64,000 bases of DNA from Escherichia coli 042. Lineage in GTDB: Bacteria; Pseudomonadota; Gammaproteobacteria; Enterobacterales; Enterobacteriaceae. Positions 36,001 to 42,000 of this stretch are shown piece after piece. Position 1 is the stretch's first letter, and every line of letters begins with the position of its first letter. Position numbers: made by a program. Location: NCBI RefSeq assembly GCF_000027125.1, contig NC_017626.1; one strand, written 5' to 3'.

Positions 36001-39000
36001 ATTAAGCTGACGGACAGAAAAAGTATTGCCCGGCATTGATAACTCTTCAAGATCCATACTGGTGAAGGCCGATTGCCAGGCAAGATTATCTAATGTTTCC
36101 AGCGTTTCTTTGCCATTCAGCCATTTTTTATGATTCACACCATGCAGGATCCACGTTTTGTCGTCTTCAATGGTGGCACTGCGTGCATAAATGTAGGATT
36201 CGAGCGAGAGATCGTCGCGATAATGAAAAATCTCCACGCCCACCGGCTGGCCCTGCTCGTTCAGCGATTTCACCGTCACAAATTCATTACCACGCCTGGC
36301 CCACAGCATATTGCCGGTAATGTCATCGTCCTCCCCCAACGCGGTGGCGGTCGATTTGATTTGCAACGCCTGTTGCTGTAATGGCGACGCTACCCACTCA
36401 TCTATCGCGCCTAACGAAACAGTCCACAATATCCCTGCAACCAGCGCCACCAGTGCAATACGGAAGATAGAAAACCCCATGCTGCGAATGGCGGTAAGCT
36501 CACTGTTTTTCGATAACTGCCCCAGGCCGACAATCCCTCCCAATAAGGCGATAAATGGCGAAAGTTCGACCAGTGTGCGCGGTAAGGTCATTAGCACCAC
36601 CAGCACCGCCTGAGTCCAGCGATAACCGCCCGGGCTGACATCATCCAGTTCGTTAATCAGGTTGAAGGTGGTAAAAAGCGGCAGCAATAGCCCTGCGGCG
36701 GCGGCAAAACCGAGAAAGAGATGACGGATTAAATAGCGGCTGAAAACATTCATCGGGAAAATTTCTGCAGCAAAGAGAAGTCGCGTGCGACCAGCATCAG
36801 CAGGCCCATTAGCATGAGTCCGGGTACTAACCACAAACCAGGAATGAGGGGAATCGCGCCGTTAGCCACCAGCGTACGGCAGACGTCACCGCCATAAAAA
36901 ATGGCAATAAACAGCAACGTCAGTGGCAATAACGTTGAAAATCGCCCTTGCCGCGGTTTTACCCGACTTAATGAAATGGCCAGCAGCGCCATCAACAATG
37001 CGGTCAGGCCACGGCTTTGCCGCCATTGCAGTTCGGCATGATCGGCTGGAAAGACGGAGCGCGCCAGCTCCGTGACCGATTTCGCTTTGCGTTTGACGTT
37101 AGGGCTTTGATCCAGCGGATTCAGATGTAATTGCAGATTACGGTAGATCTGTTCGTTGTCATCACGCCCCTGATGATCGATAAGATAGGCAGTGCCGTTG
37201 TGCAACATAACGGTCGGTTTCTCGGGTGATGGGTCAACCACATCAACCGAACGGGCGCGGAAAATGCGGGTTCGATTGGCAGTAGAAGTATAAATCAGCG
37301 CGTCAGTCAGGCGATTATTATCCTGATCAACCGTCTGCGAAAGGATCATTCGTCCGTTATCGTTAGTGTTAAATTTCTTTGCCCGCAACTGGCGAACATC
37401 CAGCTCCGACTGCGACTGCTGCTCCAGTTGATAAATCTGCGCATAAGCCCACGGACGACCATACATCGACAGAAGGGTGACAAAAATACTTAGCGGTATC
37501 GCCAGATAAAGAACGGCTTTGTACAAGCGTCCCGGACTGCCCCCCGCCGCAGAGATAGCGGTAATTTCCGAGTCGGTATACATCTGCCCTAGCGTCACGC
37601 CAACTGACACATACAGACCAACAGGTAACAACATCTCCAGTGCAATCAGTACTTTGTAGAAAACGATATCCAGCACAACATCAAGAGCTAATGTCCCATT
37701 TGCCGCTTCGGTCAGATAACGCTGTGCGGAGTAGCTGGCGAAAATAAAGATCAGAAAACCGACGATAATCAGCACCAGACGGCGCGTACCACGCATGATG
37801 TAGTGTTCAACCAGCTTCATCTCACTAACGCCCTCAATCCTTTGAGTTTTTTATTCATTGATCAGTTTCTGCGCCAACGCAATGACATGATCTACCTCTT
37901 CCGGCGTCAGGCTGCCGTCCTTTGCCCACTGAATTTGCCCGGCTTTATTCAGCACCAGAATGGTTGAACTCTGCTCCGGCAAGCGCCAGGCAACGCGTCC
38001 CTGTCCATTGCCGTCAATAACGAATTGCGCCCACGGATAGCGGCGTTTATTTTTTTCGATTTTGCCAACAACAAAATAGCCAGTACCAAAGATGGCATCA
38101 TCGGTGTTCACAATGGTGGTGGGCTGAAAACGATCCTGCGGAAAGTTTGCCGCTTCAACCGCTTTAATTAACAGTGAGTTCTTTTTCTTCGCCGACTTAC
38201 GCCCGGCGATATACTGAATAATGCGGACTTTTCCCGCTAATTGTGTGCTGTTCCACTTTTGGTAGTGAATTTCGTCGTCGCTATTCAGAAGCAGCTCGCC
38301 GCCTTCCTGGATATAAACAGGGGTAACCGTTTTGCCAGTGACGAAATTGTGTGCCTGCACACCCGGGGCTAAGAGCATGATAATCAACGCAATAATCAAA
38401 CGAGATGACATCATTGCTCCGGCTATAGCGGAAAACGCGAAATCAGCAGCTCTAAGCGCTGACGAATATCGCTATCCAGCGCCACCGGTGCATCATACGA
38501 CTGGCGGTTTTCCATATCATCCGCCACCATGTCGTCGTGTTTATCTCCCATCAGGCCATTAATGGCGGCGAGGAAGCGGGATATCTGTAACGCCTCTTTA
38601 TTTTCAGGATCAAGCGATCTTAAGGTGTCGTAATAAGAAACCTGCTGGCTGATGATTTTTCGCACATCATGAAATTCCCTACCGGTTAGTCGCGGTTTGG
38701 CAATAATCTCTTTCAGGGTATGCATTTGCTTTTGCCGATAGGCAATAAAACTGCTTACGCTTTCTAACTGGCTATGGCGTAATGAATAGTTCACCAACGA
38801 CCAGACCGGAGAGCTTAAATAAATCCGTAACAGGTTGCCGTAATACGACACAATATTTTTCTTACCGTTACGGAAACCATCCTGAAAACGCCCCAGAAAA
38901 ACGGTCGTTTTGCCGAATAAAAATCCGGCCTGATGCTTCTTTAAATACAGCCGTTGCGCAAAACGCAGGTGCTTGTAGCGCGCTCGCATGTATTTAAATT

Positions 39001-42000
39001 GTTTGCGCTCATCAGCAGTCAGCTCATCGCCTTTGGCTTGTTTGCGAACTAAACGCAGTAACTCCTGACGATCAACGCCATTGAGCCAGAATTGCAGGCA
39101 TAACGCGTAATTATCATGAATGATTTCGGTGGTACAACTTAGTGCAATAGTCGGCGGCAAACTAACCTGTGCATCAACGACATCATCTTCTTCAATCGCA
39201 ACAAATAGACGCTCGCTCGCCTCAAGCGGGAAATATTTTCTCATCATCAGGATTTCTCTCCGGCTGCGTTATAAAGCAAGGAATGGCGCTGAAAAAATGC
39301 CTTTAAGGTTGGAATTAACGAGAGCGCCACGTCCAGACATTGCCCACCGAAGTAAGCAAACGCTGCTCCCAGCACACCAAACAGATGACAGAACATGAAC
39401 AGCAATACGATGTAGCCGATTGAGGCGATGGTTTGCGCCACGAGAAAAGCGCGCTGTTTTCCCGCCATCAATAGCAATGACTCCTGAGGGAAGCCCAGCA
39501 TCGAAATCACAATTGCGCCCAGCATCACCTGAATCAGGTCATACGCTTCGAGATACTTAACGCCAAACACCAGCGAAATGAGCGGCTTGCCGACGATCAA
39601 CACCGCGAGCGCCACCAGAATACCGATTCCGCCCGCCAGTAAACCGGACTTCACACCTAACAACCACGGTCTGGTGGTGCGCGGATCTAAACGCATCACC
39701 TCTGGGTAAAAACTTTTACCCAGCAAACCCGCTGGCGTTCCGGCGGCGTCGAAGAATGTCATGGCGATTTTAAATAACCCGGCGGCAGCGGGTCCTAACA
39801 CGATCCCCACCAACACTGTGCTGCACGAGTTACGCGCCGACCAGATGGAGTGGGCAATGTTGGTTGACCAGACAAAACTCCACGCGCCTTTAATGTATCG
39901 GGCAGACTCAAACAGATTCAATTTGAAGGCGTTATGGATATTTCGGCGGCGTAATTCGCGCGCGGCAAACCACCAGTACATGGTGCCGCCAACCAGATTC
40001 GACACGTACCAGGCAATAACAAAACCCGCAAAACCAAAGTCAAAATACCAGGCTACGACGCTCCCCGCTGCGCGCAGAAAAGGTTTCGTCGCCTGCTGTA
40101 CAGCAATTAAATCGAAGCGATCTACCGCACGCAGAATGCCGGTCGGCGTGGAGGAAGCCATTGAAGGAATGAGCGTGCAATAGAGCGCTGCCAGCCAAAA
40201 GCTTTGGTCATCCAGACCTAATGAATGGGAAAGGAATGGCAGTAAGGCAATGCCACCGACAATCGCCACCGCGCCGCTGACGATATCCAGCGAGAAGGAA
40301 AATGAGACGACATTGCGGAATTGCTGCGGATTATTGTTGGTTAATGCTGGTGTTCCGTACTGAACCACCAGTTGCCATGTCTGAAACTTAATAAAATCGC
40401 TGATCGACTTGGCGTACGATTGCACAATCACCAGTACGCCAAACATGGCGGGCGTCATCCCTTTACCGGCACACGAGAGCGCCAACAGACCCAGCAAGGC
40501 GCTCACGACATTACTGGAGCCTAACCAGGCGCTATTGCGAATAATGGTGCGAAACGCGCCATCTGCAAACCAATGTTTGATGTTAAAACCCGCCAATTCA
40601 GCCTGACCTTATCGTTGATAGTAAAAAGTATCCCGCCAGCCTTAAGTTAAACTTCGGCGGTCAGAAACGATGGCAACCAGAGAAACCGCCTTCTGTGCCT
40701 GTTCCAGCACTTCGCTGTAGGGCGCTCTGGAATCAATCTCAAGAATTTTTGTGCCGTTATAGCCAATCTTCGACATGACACCGATTTTGTCCTGCAGCTC
40801 GGCATAGTCATGGTCAGGCTTGCGGGAGATGGCAGTCTCAATATCAATGCCCAGGCGAATAATTAATTCCGGGCGATATTGCGCCATTTGTTGGTATAAA
40901 CGCCGTTCGCGCTGCGCCAGAAACATGCTGATTTTCCCGGTCGCACGTTCGACGCCAATCCCCGGTCCATCATAATAAAAGCCCGAAATTTCAGCCTGCG
41001 GGAAGCGATCGCTGACCACCAGAACGCCACTTTGCGCCAGTCGCTGAACCTTGCGTAGATTCGCCATTCTTCGCAGCGAGAAGCAGTACATAATCACCGC
41101 CGCCCATAGCGCCGGAGATTTGGTTTTCATGCTTTGGGTTTTCGAGGATTTGGCCGCCAGTCGCCGTTCCAGCCAGACGCCAACCAACGGCAATCGTTTG
41201 ATTTTGTCGCCGTCTTCGCCGGAGAGCAGCCCCAGATAGCGCCGCTCGGTTTGCCAGTGTTGTTGCAGCGATTTCACCAGGTCGGTGGTCAGTGTGGATT
41301 TACCGGTGCCATCACACCCGACCACCGCAATCAGCCCCGGAATGTAGTTGGGCTGCGGCGCGGTTGTACTATTAACAGTTTGAGTTTGTAGTGCATCCAT
41401 TCGTTAAATCATCCCCTATCCATTTTGGTGATCAGGAAAGCGCGGCGTGAATTGCGCGTAGTGACGCTTGCAGAATTTCATCGGCGGGGTGTCGCCCATC
41501 CAGTTCAAGGATCTTTGCGCCATTGAATGTCAGTTGCGGCGTAACGGCGATTTTTTCCTGTAACGCTGCCAGTTGGTGGTCAGGTTTACGCGCAAACGCG
41601 GTTTGTTCATCAATGCCAAGACGAATCAACAATACGGGCAAATAAGATGCCATCCATTGGTACAGCTTCAGCTCGCGCTGCCTTAACATTTTTATCCAAC
41701 CGTTACCGCCCGTGGTTTTTGCCAATTGCGGGCCATCAAAGCGAAACCCCGGCACTTCAACCTGCGGGTAGCGGTCGGTGATGAGCAGAAAGCCTTGCTG
41801 GCTTTTACACAACATTTTGCGAAACTTGTACGCCCGCCAGCAGGAAAGCAGATAGATAACCAGTGCAGTAATATTGCCAGGCGGTGTTGAGGGCTTTTCG
41901 TGCACATGTGCCGCTTTACTTCGCAGATAACGCCCAAAAGGTGCGCCAATAACAGGGAGCTGTGAAATCCATTCGCCAATTCGCCCGGACGATTGCCCGA

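What the first reader, a model, noticed from the sequence alone, without database searches (positions are those of the whole stretch)
37851..39247. Two uncharacterised proteins co-transcribed with the permeases and flippase
One is a 187-aa protein with a clear signal peptide and the other a 274-aa cytoplasmic protein without recognisable motifs. Both are embedded in the same minus-strand gene run and could be periplasmic and cytoplasmic accessory factors for lipid handling.
Basis: seen in the sequence. Interest (0 to 1): 0.4.

Follow-up and report, generated by a model that had tools for sequence, protein, structure and literature searches.

The report
CHAD-like and YtfJ-like sphingolipid-locus proteins
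The two "unknown" genes are real, conserved members of the E. coli sphingolipid gene cluster: one is a hidden relative of polyphosphate-binding CHAD domains that always travels with a flippase-like membrane protein and thymidylate-kinase-like kinases, and the other is a cysteine-free periplasmic thioredoxin-fold protein of the YtfJ family, so the pair points to an unstudied phosphate-handling step in bacterial sphingolipid export.

Summary
Both ORFs sit exactly at 37851-39247 (minus strand) and are under strong purifying selection (dN/dS 0.07-0.12). Their spacing to yghQ and lptF2 fits translational coupling.

The window is non-K-12 E. coli. The genes lie in the known sphingolipid locus (yghO, aasR, cerR, acpR, spt | lptG2, lptF2, these two, yghQ, yghR, yghS | yghT), which an IS5 element deleted from K-12.

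- **187-aa protein.** It is a YtfJ-family paralog, 54% identical to canonical YtfJ. It has a signal peptide and no cysteine, and its model has a TlpA/ResA/peroxiredoxin-type thioredoxin fold. It occurs only in Enterobacterales and always sits next to the 274-aa gene.

Best inference, not shown: the 274-aa protein is a cytoplasmic phosphate-chain or anionic-headgroup binder for a YghRST/YghQ head-group and flipping module, and the 187-aa protein is a non-redox periplasmic hand-off factor. This is a new variant of a known kind, of moderate interest.

The parts
38423..39247 (-). 274-aa cytoplasmic, basic, all-alpha protein ('chadL'): a divergent CHAD-domain protein
37851..38414 (-). 187-aa (probably 186-aa, start at 38411) periplasmic YtfJ-family paralog ('ytfJL'): thioredoxin-like fold, no cysteine
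39247..40596 (-). yghQ, full-length (449 aa) MOP/Wzx-type flippase-like membrane protein; its stop overlaps the chadL start
   Evidence: PF01943 7e-11, PF13440. Directly upstream of chadL in 66/79 related loci. Truncated by IS5 in K-12.
40642..41400 (-). yghR, dTMP-kinase-like P-loop kinase paralog
   Evidence: Thymidylate_kin-type hits. A5 profile gives thymidylate kinases as best PDB matches, 4.8e-8. Intact GxDGxGK[ST], DR[YF]PQ and RKPDH motifs.
41432..42145 (-). yghS, dTMP-kinase-like P-loop kinase paralog; first gene of the minus-strand run
   Evidence: Promoter-like site 42223..42195 upstream (a consensus match only).
42319..43011 (+). yghT, third dTMP-kinase-like paralog, divergently transcribed
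36750..37820 (-). lptF2, LptF-like permease paralog of the sphingolipid locus
   Evidence: PF03739 7e-54, TIGR04407 318 bits. Caulobacter LptF2G2 homologs are required for sphingolipid transport.
35674..36753 (-). lptG2, LptG-like permease paralog (RefSeq start; the mechanical ORF extends to 36834)
   Evidence: PF03739 1.2e-69, TIGR04408 308 bits.
35642..35676 (.). Bidirectional terminator-like hairpin between convergent spt and lptG2; end of the minus-strand run
   Evidence: 16-bp stem, 10 GC pairs.
30042..35639 (.). Ceramide-synthesis half of the locus: yghO (bCerS-type N-acyltransferase, -), aasR (+), cerR/epi (+), acpR (+), spt (+)
   Evidence: NF047599 serine palmitoyltransferase 599 bits (cutoff 500), fatty acyl-AMP ligase 878 bits, ACP, NAD-epimerase. 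The E. coli B proteins were characterised in PMC9386255.

Best explanation
Both ORFs are functional genes of the E. coli sphingolipid locus and belong to its second half, which handles head-group modification and export (yghS-yghR-yghQ-chadL-ytfJL-lptF2-lptG2).

**Shown for the 274-aa protein.**
- It is a soluble, basic, cytoplasmic protein with the CHAD fold of two four-helix bundles.
- It keeps the pseudo-symmetric CHAD motif pairs: K85-x2-R88-x3-K92-x2-R95 with G119-x2-Q-D123, and H193-x2-R196-K197 with G234-x2-H-D238.
- It forms a conserved gene block with the MOP-family YghQ and two or three dTMP-kinase-like kinases. The block occurs in Enterobacterales, Rhodanobacteraceae, Sphingomonadales and Acetobacteraceae.

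**Inferred mechanism for the 274-aa protein.** It binds a phosphoanhydride chain or an anionic phospho-headgroup at the inner face of the membrane. That ligand could be polyP or oligophosphate used as donor, or the phosphorylated ceramide product. The protein thereby serves the YghR/S/T kinases and hands the anionic lipid to YghQ for flipping.

**Shown for the 187-aa protein.**
- It is a signal-peptide-bearing, cysteine-free, thioredoxin-fold YtfJ paralog.
- It is restricted to Enterobacterales and is always adjacent to chadL.

**Inferred mechanism for the 187-aa protein.** It is a non-redox periplasmic binding or hand-off factor. It would act on the flipped lipid before LptF2G2 (with LptB) extracts it for transport to the outer membrane. 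Its invariant I-A-G-R-x-S-A-K-x-x-N loop lies between strand 63-70 and helix 76-89 of the AF2 model. In thioredoxin-fold enzymes the CxxC motif sits at the N-terminus of helix alpha1; that is general knowledge, and no residue-level alignment to such an enzyme was obtained.
For: **Identity of the locus.**, plus PMC9386255, show E. coli B Spt, AcpR and AasR are active. Caulobacter LptF2G2 are needed for sphingolipid transport and bind LptB, and the E. coli UTI89 locus is drawn as homologous.

**Gene linkage.** yghQ lies directly upstream in 66 of 79 loci. ytfJL lies directly downstream in 48 of 50 Enterobacterales loci, including those where lptF2G2 are relocated. Sphingomonadales carry a four-gene unit, yghS-yghT-yghQ-chadL. 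In Acetobacter the yghT-chadL pair sits among MOP, GT4, GT2 and ArnT-like GT-C envelope glycolipid genes.

**Kinase partners.** YghR/S/T are dTMPK-like with intact P-loop, DRY and lid motifs.

**Precedent.** In Sulfolobus, two dTMPK-like paralogs form the polyP kinase PPK3 and are encoded in one operon with a CHAD protein. A CHAD domain enhances the polyPase activity of YgiF.

**YtfJL.** Family hits, fold, absence of Cys and invariant residues. Canonical ytfJ has a sigma-E (envelope stress) promoter.

**Selection.** dN/dS 0.07-0.12.
Against: - No experiment shows that E. coli makes a phosphorylated sphingolipid, that chadL binds phosphate polymers, or that either protein touches a lipid.
- The E. 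coli protein itself does not reach any Pfam CHAD score.
- hhalign against E. coli YgiF gave nothing.
- In the second repeat, the third basic residue of the CHAD ladder is Ser200. E. coli has Gln at position 201, where 84% of the family has a basic residue.
- YghR/S/T are closer to bacterial thymidylate kinases than to the archaeal cPPK3 structure (2plr/5h70 E 0.025 against 5e-8), and no ppx or sixA gene is nearby. The PPK3 parallel is therefore architectural only.
- The locus decays in several E. coli lineages (K-12 IS5 deletion, IS1 insertion, a frameshift allele), so it is dispensable.
- YtfJL's role rests only on location, gene adjacency and fold.
Confidence: 0.4

Rival explanations
1. chadL is a purely structural or regulatory partner, for example a cytoplasmic cap or assembly factor of YghQ or of the YghRST kinases. 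The CHAD helical-bundle fold would have been reused for protein-protein contacts, with no phosphate-chain binding.
For: It is strongly diverged from canonical CHAD: no direct Pfam hit and no hhalign signal to YgiF. The basic ladder of the second repeat is partly lost. The tightest linkage is to a membrane protein, with overlapping stop and start codons.
Against: The residues that remain invariant across a family diverged to 18-30% identity are exactly the CHAD phosphate-contact positions (R88, K92, R95, H193, R196, K197) and the GxxxD pairs. The protein is basic overall (pI 9.3).
Confidence: 0.25
2. YghR/S/T plus chadL form a PPK3-like polyphosphate kinase and storage system, and YghQ is an exporter of an anionic polymer. 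In this reading the module has no direct role in sphingolipids, and its adjacency to spt reflects co-regulation or co-transfer.
For: The Sulfolobus PPK3 operon combines two dTMPK-like paralogs with a CHAD protein. In Sphingomonadales the yghS-yghT-yghQ-chadL unit is not next to spt. K-12 keeps yghR/S/T although the rest is deleted.
Against: 77 of 79 loci come from taxa with spt in the locus or known as sphingolipid producers. In Enterobacterales and Rhodanobacteraceae the module is interleaved with spt, acpR, aasR, cerR, yghO and lptF2G2. In Acetobacter it is interleaved with envelope glycolipid glycosyltransferases. There is no ppx, sixA or ppk nearby. All three kinase paralogs keep catalytic motifs, unlike the catalytic-plus-regulatory pair cPPK3/rPPK3. 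E. coli already has PPK1, which is established knowledge.
Confidence: 0.15
3. YtfJL is a periplasmic thiol-disulfide oxidoreductase or peroxiredoxin, as its fold neighbours are.
Against: The protein has no cysteine at all, and neither does the canonical paralog or any aligned ortholog. The loop between strand 63-70 and helix 76-89, where thioredoxin-fold enzymes carry their CxxC by general knowledge, holds an invariant AGRxSAK instead.
Confidence: 0.03
4. The two ORFs are decaying or unexpressed remnants of a horizontally acquired island with no present function.
For: The locus is absent or disrupted in about a quarter of E. coli genomes: the IS5 deletion in K-12, an IS1 insertion in chadL, an A7-tract frameshift in ytfJL and deletion chimeras. 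No native E. coli sphingolipid has been described in the papers found.
Against: dN/dS is 0.07-0.12 over dS up to more than 2. Synteny is conserved across four orders. Reading frames are intact in 4108 genomes. GC3 is similar to that of the neighbours.
Confidence: 0.03

Closest known systems
CHAD domain proteins (Pfam PF05235; structures RcCHAD 6qv5, CtCHAD 3e0s/6qv7, PptA 6rn5, C-terminal domain of E. coli YgiF 5a60/5a61)
   Different: Below all Pfam thresholds in E. coli. An extra N-terminal segment (residues 1-75) with its own conserved D22/P31/W54. The second basic ladder is truncated. It is never next to ppk, ppx or TTM genes. Instead it is coupled to a MOP-family membrane protein and to sphingolipid genes. 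PolyP binding is untested.
Sulfolobus acidocaldarius polyP operon (ppx-sixA-cPPK3-rPPK3-CHAD; PMC12995831)
   Same: Paralogous dTMP-kinase-like proteins encoded together with a CHAD-type protein.
   Different: Here there are three apparently catalytic paralogs, no ppx or sixA, an added MOP transporter and a lipid-biosynthesis context. YghR/S/T are not specifically similar to cPPK3.
E. coli YtfJ (b4216) / Haemophilus HI0045 family (PF09695, TIGR01626)
   Same: 54% identity, the same length, signal peptide, invariant mature N-terminus A|H-N/Q-F and invariant motifs. Both are Cys-free.
   Different: A second copy embedded in the sphingolipid locus and present only when that locus is present. The canonical copy is monocistronic near cysQ/cpdB and is sigma-E controlled. 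Neither has a known function.
Caulobacter crescentus sphingolipid locus (CC_1152-CC_1168: Spt, AcpR, AasR, CerR, bCerS, CpgA-D, LptF2/G2/C2, putative flippase CC_1166)
   Same: The same ceramide-synthesis genes and LptF2/LptG2 paralogs, plus a flippase-like gene in the cluster. The logic is an anionic sphingolipid that has to be flipped and extracted.
   Different: E. coli has no CpgA-D genes or DAGK-type ceramide kinase in the annotated locus and no LptC2. It has YghR/S/T, a CHAD-like protein and a YtfJ paralog instead. chadL homologs were not found in Caulobacter among 149 genome hits.
TlpA/ResA/DsbE/peroxiredoxin thioredoxin-like periplasmic proteins
   Same: Same fold in the AF2 model. The only local sequence echo is FVIDGNG against FLIDGNG in a non-significant hhalign match to DsbE.
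   Different: No CxxC or peroxidatic Cys, so no thiol redox chemistry is possible.

Membership tests
CHAD domain superfamily (PF05235) | [quoted passage not shown] | tested here: met
CHAD domain superfamily (PF05235) | Repeated conserved His/basic helix (HxxRxxxR) plus LGxxxD helix in both halves | tested here: met
   The profile alignment to 6qv5 puts R88, K92 and R95, and H193, R196, G234 and D238, in register. Family conservation: K85, R88, K92, R95, G119 and D123, and H193, R196, K197, G234, H237 and D238. Variation: K replaces H in repeat 1, and the third basic residue is lost in repeat 2.
CHAD domain superfamily (PF05235) | Sequence match to the Pfam model above its gathering score | tested here: not met
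   The E. coli protein has no hit even at E<=10. The link is transitive only: 24 of 80 family members match at E<=0.01, and distant members P0182, P0220, P0234 and P0239 score 30.7-40.9 bits against a cutoff of 25.6.
CHAD domain superfamily (PF05235) | Specific binding of inorganic polyphosphate | not testable with these tools
   Needs purified protein (GCI, ITC or gel shift). Only the conservation of contact-type residues and pI 9.3 are available.
CHAD domain superfamily (PF05235) | Genomic association with polyP-metabolising enzymes (PPK, PPX, TTM) | tested here: inconclusive
   No ppk, ppx or TTM gene is nearby. It is associated instead with dTMPK-like kinases, a class now known to include the polyP kinase PPK3.
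YtfJ_HI0045 family (PF09695 / TIGR01626) | Full-length match above curated cutoffs | tested here: met
   PF09695 200.5 bits (cutoff 24). TIGR01626 212.1 bits (cutoff 151.1), covering 2-185 of 187 residues. 54% identity to E. coli YtfJ.
YtfJ_HI0045 family (PF09695 / TIGR01626) | Secreted (signal peptide), about 185 aa, gammaproteobacterial | tested here: met
   Signal peptide with a VQA|H cleavage site. Orthologs are found only in Enterobacterales loci.
Thiol-disulfide oxidoreductase / peroxiredoxin (thioredoxin-fold enzymes) | CxxC or peroxidatic cysteine at the N-terminus of helix alpha1 | tested here: not met
   No cysteine in the protein or in 16 aligned homologs. The fold similarity is real, but the catalytic residues are absent.
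LptC/LptA-type periplasmic lipid bridge proteins | Beta-jellyroll (OstA-like) fold | tested here: not met
   YtfJL models as an alpha/beta thioredoxin fold and has no LptC or OstA Pfam hit. It may work alongside LptF2G2 but is not an LptC2 homolog.
PPK3-type polyphosphate kinase system | Catalytic plus regulatory dTMPK-like pair, specifically related to Saci_2019/2020, in an operon with ppx and CHAD | tested here: inconclusive
   Architecture is partly shared: dTMPK-like paralogs plus a CHAD-like protein. YghR/S/T match ordinary thymidylate kinases better (3hjn 4.8e-8) than the cPPK3 homolog 2plr/5h70 (0.025). All three keep catalytic motifs. There is no ppx.
Proteobacterial sphingolipid locus | Co-location with spt, acpR, aasR, cerR and bCerS (yghO) | tested here: met
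   All five genes lie within 9 kb in the window and in 43 of 50 Enterobacterales and 5 of 5 Rhodanobacteraceae loci.

The most novel reading that the evidence does not exclude
A membrane-coupled module links polyphosphate-type chemistry to lipid biosynthesis. It consists of the dTMP-kinase-like YghR/S/T, a CHAD-like phosphate-chain binder and the MOP flippase YghQ, with periplasmic YtfJL and LptF2G2 in enterobacteria. It would either build an oligo- or pyrophosphorylated ceramide head group or use polyP as the phosphoryl donor for it, and then export the product to the outer membrane. This would be a new class of anionic bacterial sphingolipid and the first lipid-pathway role for a CHAD domain.
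Probability: 0.15. Interest if true: 0.8.

Novelty: new variant of a known kind. Interest (0 to 1): 0.5.

Why it matters
Bacterial sphingolipid synthesis up to ceramide was worked out only recently. Transport is just beginning to be understood, through Caulobacter LptF2G2 in 2026.

Most E. coli strains, including BL21, ATCC 8739 and UPEC, carry a complete locus whose product is unknown. Its second half differs from the Caulobacter Cpg pathway. Recognising the 'hypothetical' gene as a CHAD-type protein locked to YghQ and YghR/S/T gives a concrete, testable hypothesis for the missing head-group and flipping step: phosphate-chain handling at the membrane. It also gives orphan K-12 genes (yghQ, yghR, yghS, yghT) a pathway context.

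The YtfJ paralog offers the first contextual clue to a sigma-E-regulated periplasmic family with no known function. If the phosphate link holds, it would extend CHAD and polyP biology into envelope lipid biogenesis.

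Tried and rejected
- **Direct family scans of the 274-aa protein.** Pfam and NCBIfam gave no hits and only noise at E<=10.
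- **hhalign tests.** The family alignment against E. coli YgiF gave no signal.
- **First genome scan.** The scan with the 80-sequence alignment failed because no conserved stretch was found. It was repeated with 27 sequences.
- **ORFs downstream of chadL in Novosphingobium (404, 291 and 245 aa).** They have no Pfam hits, are not conserved in any other locus and have Arg/Ala/Gly-rich translations, so they were rejected as spurious high-GC ORFs.
- **Other contexts.** The orphan second copy in Pluralibacter (BCCT, M20, MFS and LysR neighbours) and the distant fusion proteins P0234 and P0182 were uninformative.
- **Anti-phage defence role.** PADLOC gave only P-loop noise.
- **ncRNA in 29-44 kb.** Rfam found none.
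- **Promoter and terminator scans.** Counts inside the run were at chance level.
- **CpgB-type ceramide kinase homology for YghR/S/T.** Rejected, because CpgB is a DAGK/GGDG-type kinase.
- **Literature.** No paper links CHAD or YtfJ to sphingolipid loci, and none mentions ECD_02855-02859.

Full report
**Observation.** The window carries two minus-strand ORFs at exactly the stated coordinates: 37851-38414 (187 aa) and 38423-39247 (274 aa). RefSeq annotates the same genes in E. coli ATCC 8739 as 'YtfJ family protein' and 'hypothetical protein'.

The junctions in the sequence are:
- The yghQ stop codon overlaps the ATG of the 274-aa gene (TGATG), with a GGAGAG 8 nt upstream.
- Only 8 nt, containing a GGAG, separate the 274-aa and 187-aa genes. 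The second ATG, used by RefSeq, is the better spaced start.
- 30 nt separate the 187-aa gene from lptF2, and lptF2 overlaps lptG2.
- The only convincing terminator is the 16-bp hairpin at 35642-35676 after lptG2. Promoter-like and terminator-like hits inside the run are at chance frequency.

The 187-aa protein begins with a textbook SPase-I signal peptide (…LLAPGVQA|HNF). The 274-aa protein has no hydrophobic segment and a pI of 9.3.

Both genes evolve under strong purifying selection, with dN/dS 0.066-0.118 against orthologs whose dS ranges from 0.4 to more than 2. The region is present in 4176 of 5426 complete E. coli genomes. Co-transcription is inferred from spacing, not shown.

**Where this is.** The window is E. 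coli; this region is 99.8% identical to ATCC 8739 and similar strains. The gene order is:

glcC | yghO(-) | aasR, cerR/epi, acpR, spt (+) | lptG2, lptF2, ytfJ-like, 274-aa gene, yghQ, yghR, yghS (-) | yghT(+) | pitB, gss, yghU.

- The spt product scores 599 bits on the NCBIfam serine palmitoyltransferase equivalog, against a cutoff of 500.
- This is the E. coli B sphingolipid cluster ECD_02850-02854. Its Spt, AcpR and AasR were shown to be active (PMC9386255).
- The LptF/LptG-like pair corresponds to Caulobacter LptF2/LptG2. Those proteins are required for transport of the anionic sphingolipid CPG2 and bind LptB. That preprint draws the E. coli UTI89 locus as homologous (bioRxiv 10.64898/2026.04.12.717747).
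- In K-12 an IS5 element (insH9) replaces everything from the 5' end of yghO to the 3' end of yghQ. K-12 therefore lacks both genes of the finding.
- None of the papers found mentions the two genes, CHAD or YtfJ in this context.

**The 187-aa protein.**
- It is a full-length YtfJ-family member: PF09695 at 1.7e-59, and TIGR01626 at 212 bits against a cutoff of 151.
- Nearly all E. coli genomes carry the canonical ytfJ, next to ytfK, cysQ and cpdB. 4120 genomes carry this second copy as well. The two proteins are 54% identical.
- The family has no solved relative by sequence.
- Neither this protein nor any aligned homolog contains a cysteine. Thiol redox chemistry is therefore excluded.
- The loop between strand 63-70 and helix 76-89 of the model carries an invariant I-A-G-R-x-S-A-K-x-x-N. 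By general knowledge of the fold, this is where thioredoxin-fold enzymes carry their CxxC. I read the loop as a possible anion site; that is inference.
- The mature N-terminus is an invariant His (A|HNF).
- Canonical ytfJ has a sigma-E promoter (PMC4447067), which ties the family to envelope homeostasis.
- Among 79 related loci, the paralog occurs only in Enterobacterales. There it lies directly downstream of the 274-aa gene in 48 of 50 loci. This includes loci where lptF2G2 sit elsewhere (L009, L034, L047, L073). It travels with the 274-aa gene rather than with the permeases.

**The 274-aa protein.** Direct searches gave nothing: Pfam, NCBIfam and PDB sequences. Homologs are 'hypothetical' throughout Enterobacterales. 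A profile search of 1.84 billion representatives found a small family, with 287 clusters at 50% identity.

Four independent lines identify it as a divergent CHAD domain:
2. **Profile against PDB sequences.** A profile of 80 family members ranks CHAD 6qv5 first (E 0.0016). The two signature regions are aligned in register.
3. **Pfam on family members.** 24 of the 80 single-domain members hit Pfam CHAD at E<=0.01 (best 1.7e-8), and no other family recurs. More distant members and fusions exceed the Pfam cutoff.
4. **Conserved motifs.** The near-invariant residues form the CHAD pseudo-repeat: K85/R88/K92/R95 on helix 4 with G119/Q122/D123 on helix 5, and H193/R196/K197 on helix 9 with G234/H237/D238 on helix 10. 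These correspond to the HxxRxxxR positions whose mutation abolishes polyP binding in CtCHAD and SsCHAD (bioRxiv 10.1101/567040).

There are also differences from canonical CHAD. The E. coli protein is sub-threshold for Pfam. A K replaces the first His. The second basic ladder is shortened. There is an extra conserved N-terminal segment. hhalign against the short CHAD domain of YgiF gave no signal.

**Gene neighbourhood of the 274-aa family.** A genome scan returned 79 loci, which I annotated by tblastn with the proteins of the window.
- The gene lies directly downstream of yghQ in 66 of 79 loci. The exceptions are contig ends, two orphan paralogs and the Acetobacteraceae.
- It is accompanied by two or three yghR/S/T paralogs in four groups: Enterobacterales; Rhodanobacteraceae (Luteibacter, Rhodanobacter and Dyella, inside an spt cluster); Sphingomonadales (a compact yghS-yghT-yghQ-chadL unit); and Acetobacteraceae.
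- In Acetobacter cibinongensis the yghT-chadL pair sits between a MOP flippase with a GT4 gene and an ArnT-like GT-C with a GT2 gene. That is an envelope glycolipid context.
- These taxa are the classical sphingolipid-producing Proteobacteria. For Sphingomonadales and Acetobacteraceae this is established knowledge. For the other two groups, spt is in the locus.

**The kinase partners.** YghR, YghS and YghT are dTMP-kinase-like. Their profile's best PDB hits are thymidylate kinases, at 4.8e-8. All three keep the GxDGxGK[ST], DR[YF]PQ and RKPDH motifs. They are unrelated to the Caulobacter ceramide kinase CpgB, which is a DAGK/GGDG-type enzyme.

**Mechanism.** Shown here: the identity, fold, localisation signals, selection and conserved synteny. 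Inferred: the function.

The closest functional precedent is the Sulfolobus polyP operon. There, two dTMPK-like paralogs form the polyP kinase PPK3 and are co-encoded with a CHAD protein (PMC12995831). In addition, a CHAD domain enhances the polyphosphatase activity of YgiF.

I therefore propose the following sequence of steps:
1. The CHAD-like protein binds a phosphoanhydride chain or an anionic phospho-headgroup at the cytoplasmic face of the membrane.
2. It serves the YghR/S/T kinases, either by holding the donor or by holding the product.
3. It passes the anionic ceramide-based lipid to YghQ for flipping.
4. In enterobacteria the Cys-free YtfJ paralog acts in the periplasm as a non-redox binding or hand-off factor.
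5. LptF2G2, with LptB, extracts the lipid for the outer membrane.

My confidence in this mechanism is about 0.4. My confidence in the identity statements is about 0.9.

**Caveats.**
- YghR/S/T are not specifically related to PPK3 (2plr/5h70 at E 0.025).
- There is no ppx or sixA gene in the locus.
- No phosphorylated E. coli sphingolipid is known.
- The locus is dispensable and decays in several lineages.

**Rivals.**
- A phosphate-independent scaffold role for the CHAD-like protein (0.25).
- A stand-alone polyP system merely adjacent to sphingolipid genes (0.15). Interleaving with spt, lpt and glycosyltransferase genes in four orders argues against it.
- A redox role for YtfJL (refuted, since it has no Cys).
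- Non-functional remnants (refuted by dN/dS and synteny).

**Comparison and novelty.** The 187-aa protein is a new paralog in a known family whose function is unknown. The 274-aa protein is a new, strongly diverged CHAD subfamily in a new context: a lipid and flippase context instead of a PPK/PPX/TTM context.

The surrounding locus is already in the literature. The roles of these two genes, and the yghRST-yghQ-CHAD-like module as a unit, are not described in the library searched. I rate this as a new variant of a known kind, with interest 0.5.

The most novel reading not excluded is a polyP- or oligophosphate-linked sphingolipid head-group pathway. I give it a probability of about 0.15 and an interest of 0.8 if true.

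Noticed in passing
window 30042-31184 and 39247-40596 compared with K-12 (L082 6147-7341): In K-12 MG1655 an IS5 element (IS5LO/insH9) replaces the whole stretch from the yghO 5' end to the yghQ 3' end. It deletes aasR, cerR, acpR, spt, lptG2, lptF2, ytfJ-like and the CHAD-like gene, and leaves a truncated 355-aa YghQ. The K-12 orphan genes yghO, yghQ, yghR, yghS and yghT are therefore remnants of a sphingolipid locus.
   Followed up: yes
window 38050-38056 (A7 run on the minus strand, inside the ytfJ-like gene): A natural frameshift allele (A7 to A6) gives a 153-aa product (P0365, ...GKIEK|INAAIRG...). It was recorded on 120 contigs of the protein collection. Only about 2 of 3776 complete E. 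coli genomes matched the frameshifted 77-mer at >=99% identity.
   Followed up: partly
window 38423-39247 compared with strains LH13-b and MRE162 (hits H1-H4); proteins P0288 and P0032: There are other decay events in the locus. An IS1B insertion splits the 274-aa gene in some strains. A deletion fuses the ytfJ-like gene to the 3' part of lptG2 (P0288). A chimera joins the 274-aa gene to gspM (P0032).
   Followed up: partly
window 35674-37820: PGAP and NCBIfam name these paralogs 'LPS export ABC transporter permease LptF/LptG' (scores above the equivalog cutoffs). By context, and by the Caulobacter LptF2G2 work, they are probably sphingolipid-specific. No LptB or LptC paralog is in the locus.
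   Followed up: partly
L044 10001-11760 and L051 9152-10816 (Luteibacter); L048 10804-19619 (Rhodanobacter): Rhodanobacteraceae loci carry tandem duplicates of the CHAD-like gene. In place of lptF2G2 and ytfJ-like they have a convergent set of ORFs between chadL and yghO. Pfam confirms an OEP and an MFP; two ORFs of about 1050 aa, presumed RND pumps by size, were not scanned. This may be an alternative export route.
   Followed up: partly
L077 6433-14163 (Acetobacter cibinongensis): The yghT-like and CHAD-like genes are flanked by a GT4 glycosyltransferase, a MOP flippase, an ArnT/PMT_2-type GT-C, a GT2 and a yghS-like gene. This suggests a lipid-linked glycosylation context for the module in acetic acid bacteria.
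   Followed up: partly
window 37851-38414; alignment A4: The mature N-terminus of all YtfJ-family proteins aligned is an invariant His directly after the signal-peptide cleavage site (A|H-N/Q-F). This recalls the N-terminal His ligands of some periplasmic metal-binding proteins. No second invariant His is present.
   Followed up: no
L019 and L027 (Pluralibacter gergoviae and a Pluralibacter MAG): Pluralibacter carries a second, orphan copy of the CHAD-like gene (56-59% identity). L019 was examined: the copy lies outside any sphingolipid context, next to BCCT, M20 peptidase, MFS and LysR genes, with an LpxO-like Asp/Asn hydroxylase about 3.3 kb upstream. For L027 only the absence of cluster genes was checked.
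   Followed up: partly
window 1-25000: The left part of the window (sslE/yghJ, the gsp type II secretion genes and the glc operon) is only about 96% identical to its best E. coli match. The sphingolipid region is 99.8% identical to ATCC 8739-like strains, which suggests a mosaic history. GC falls to 0.35-0.41 in the first 4 kb.
   Followed up: no
proteins P0234 and P0239 (976 and 983 aa; L084 8001-10931): Distant family members are fused to an N-terminal APH/choline-kinase-type phosphotransferase domain and a second CHAD domain. This is another kinase-plus-CHAD-like pairing, in an uninformative metagenomic context.
   Followed up: partly
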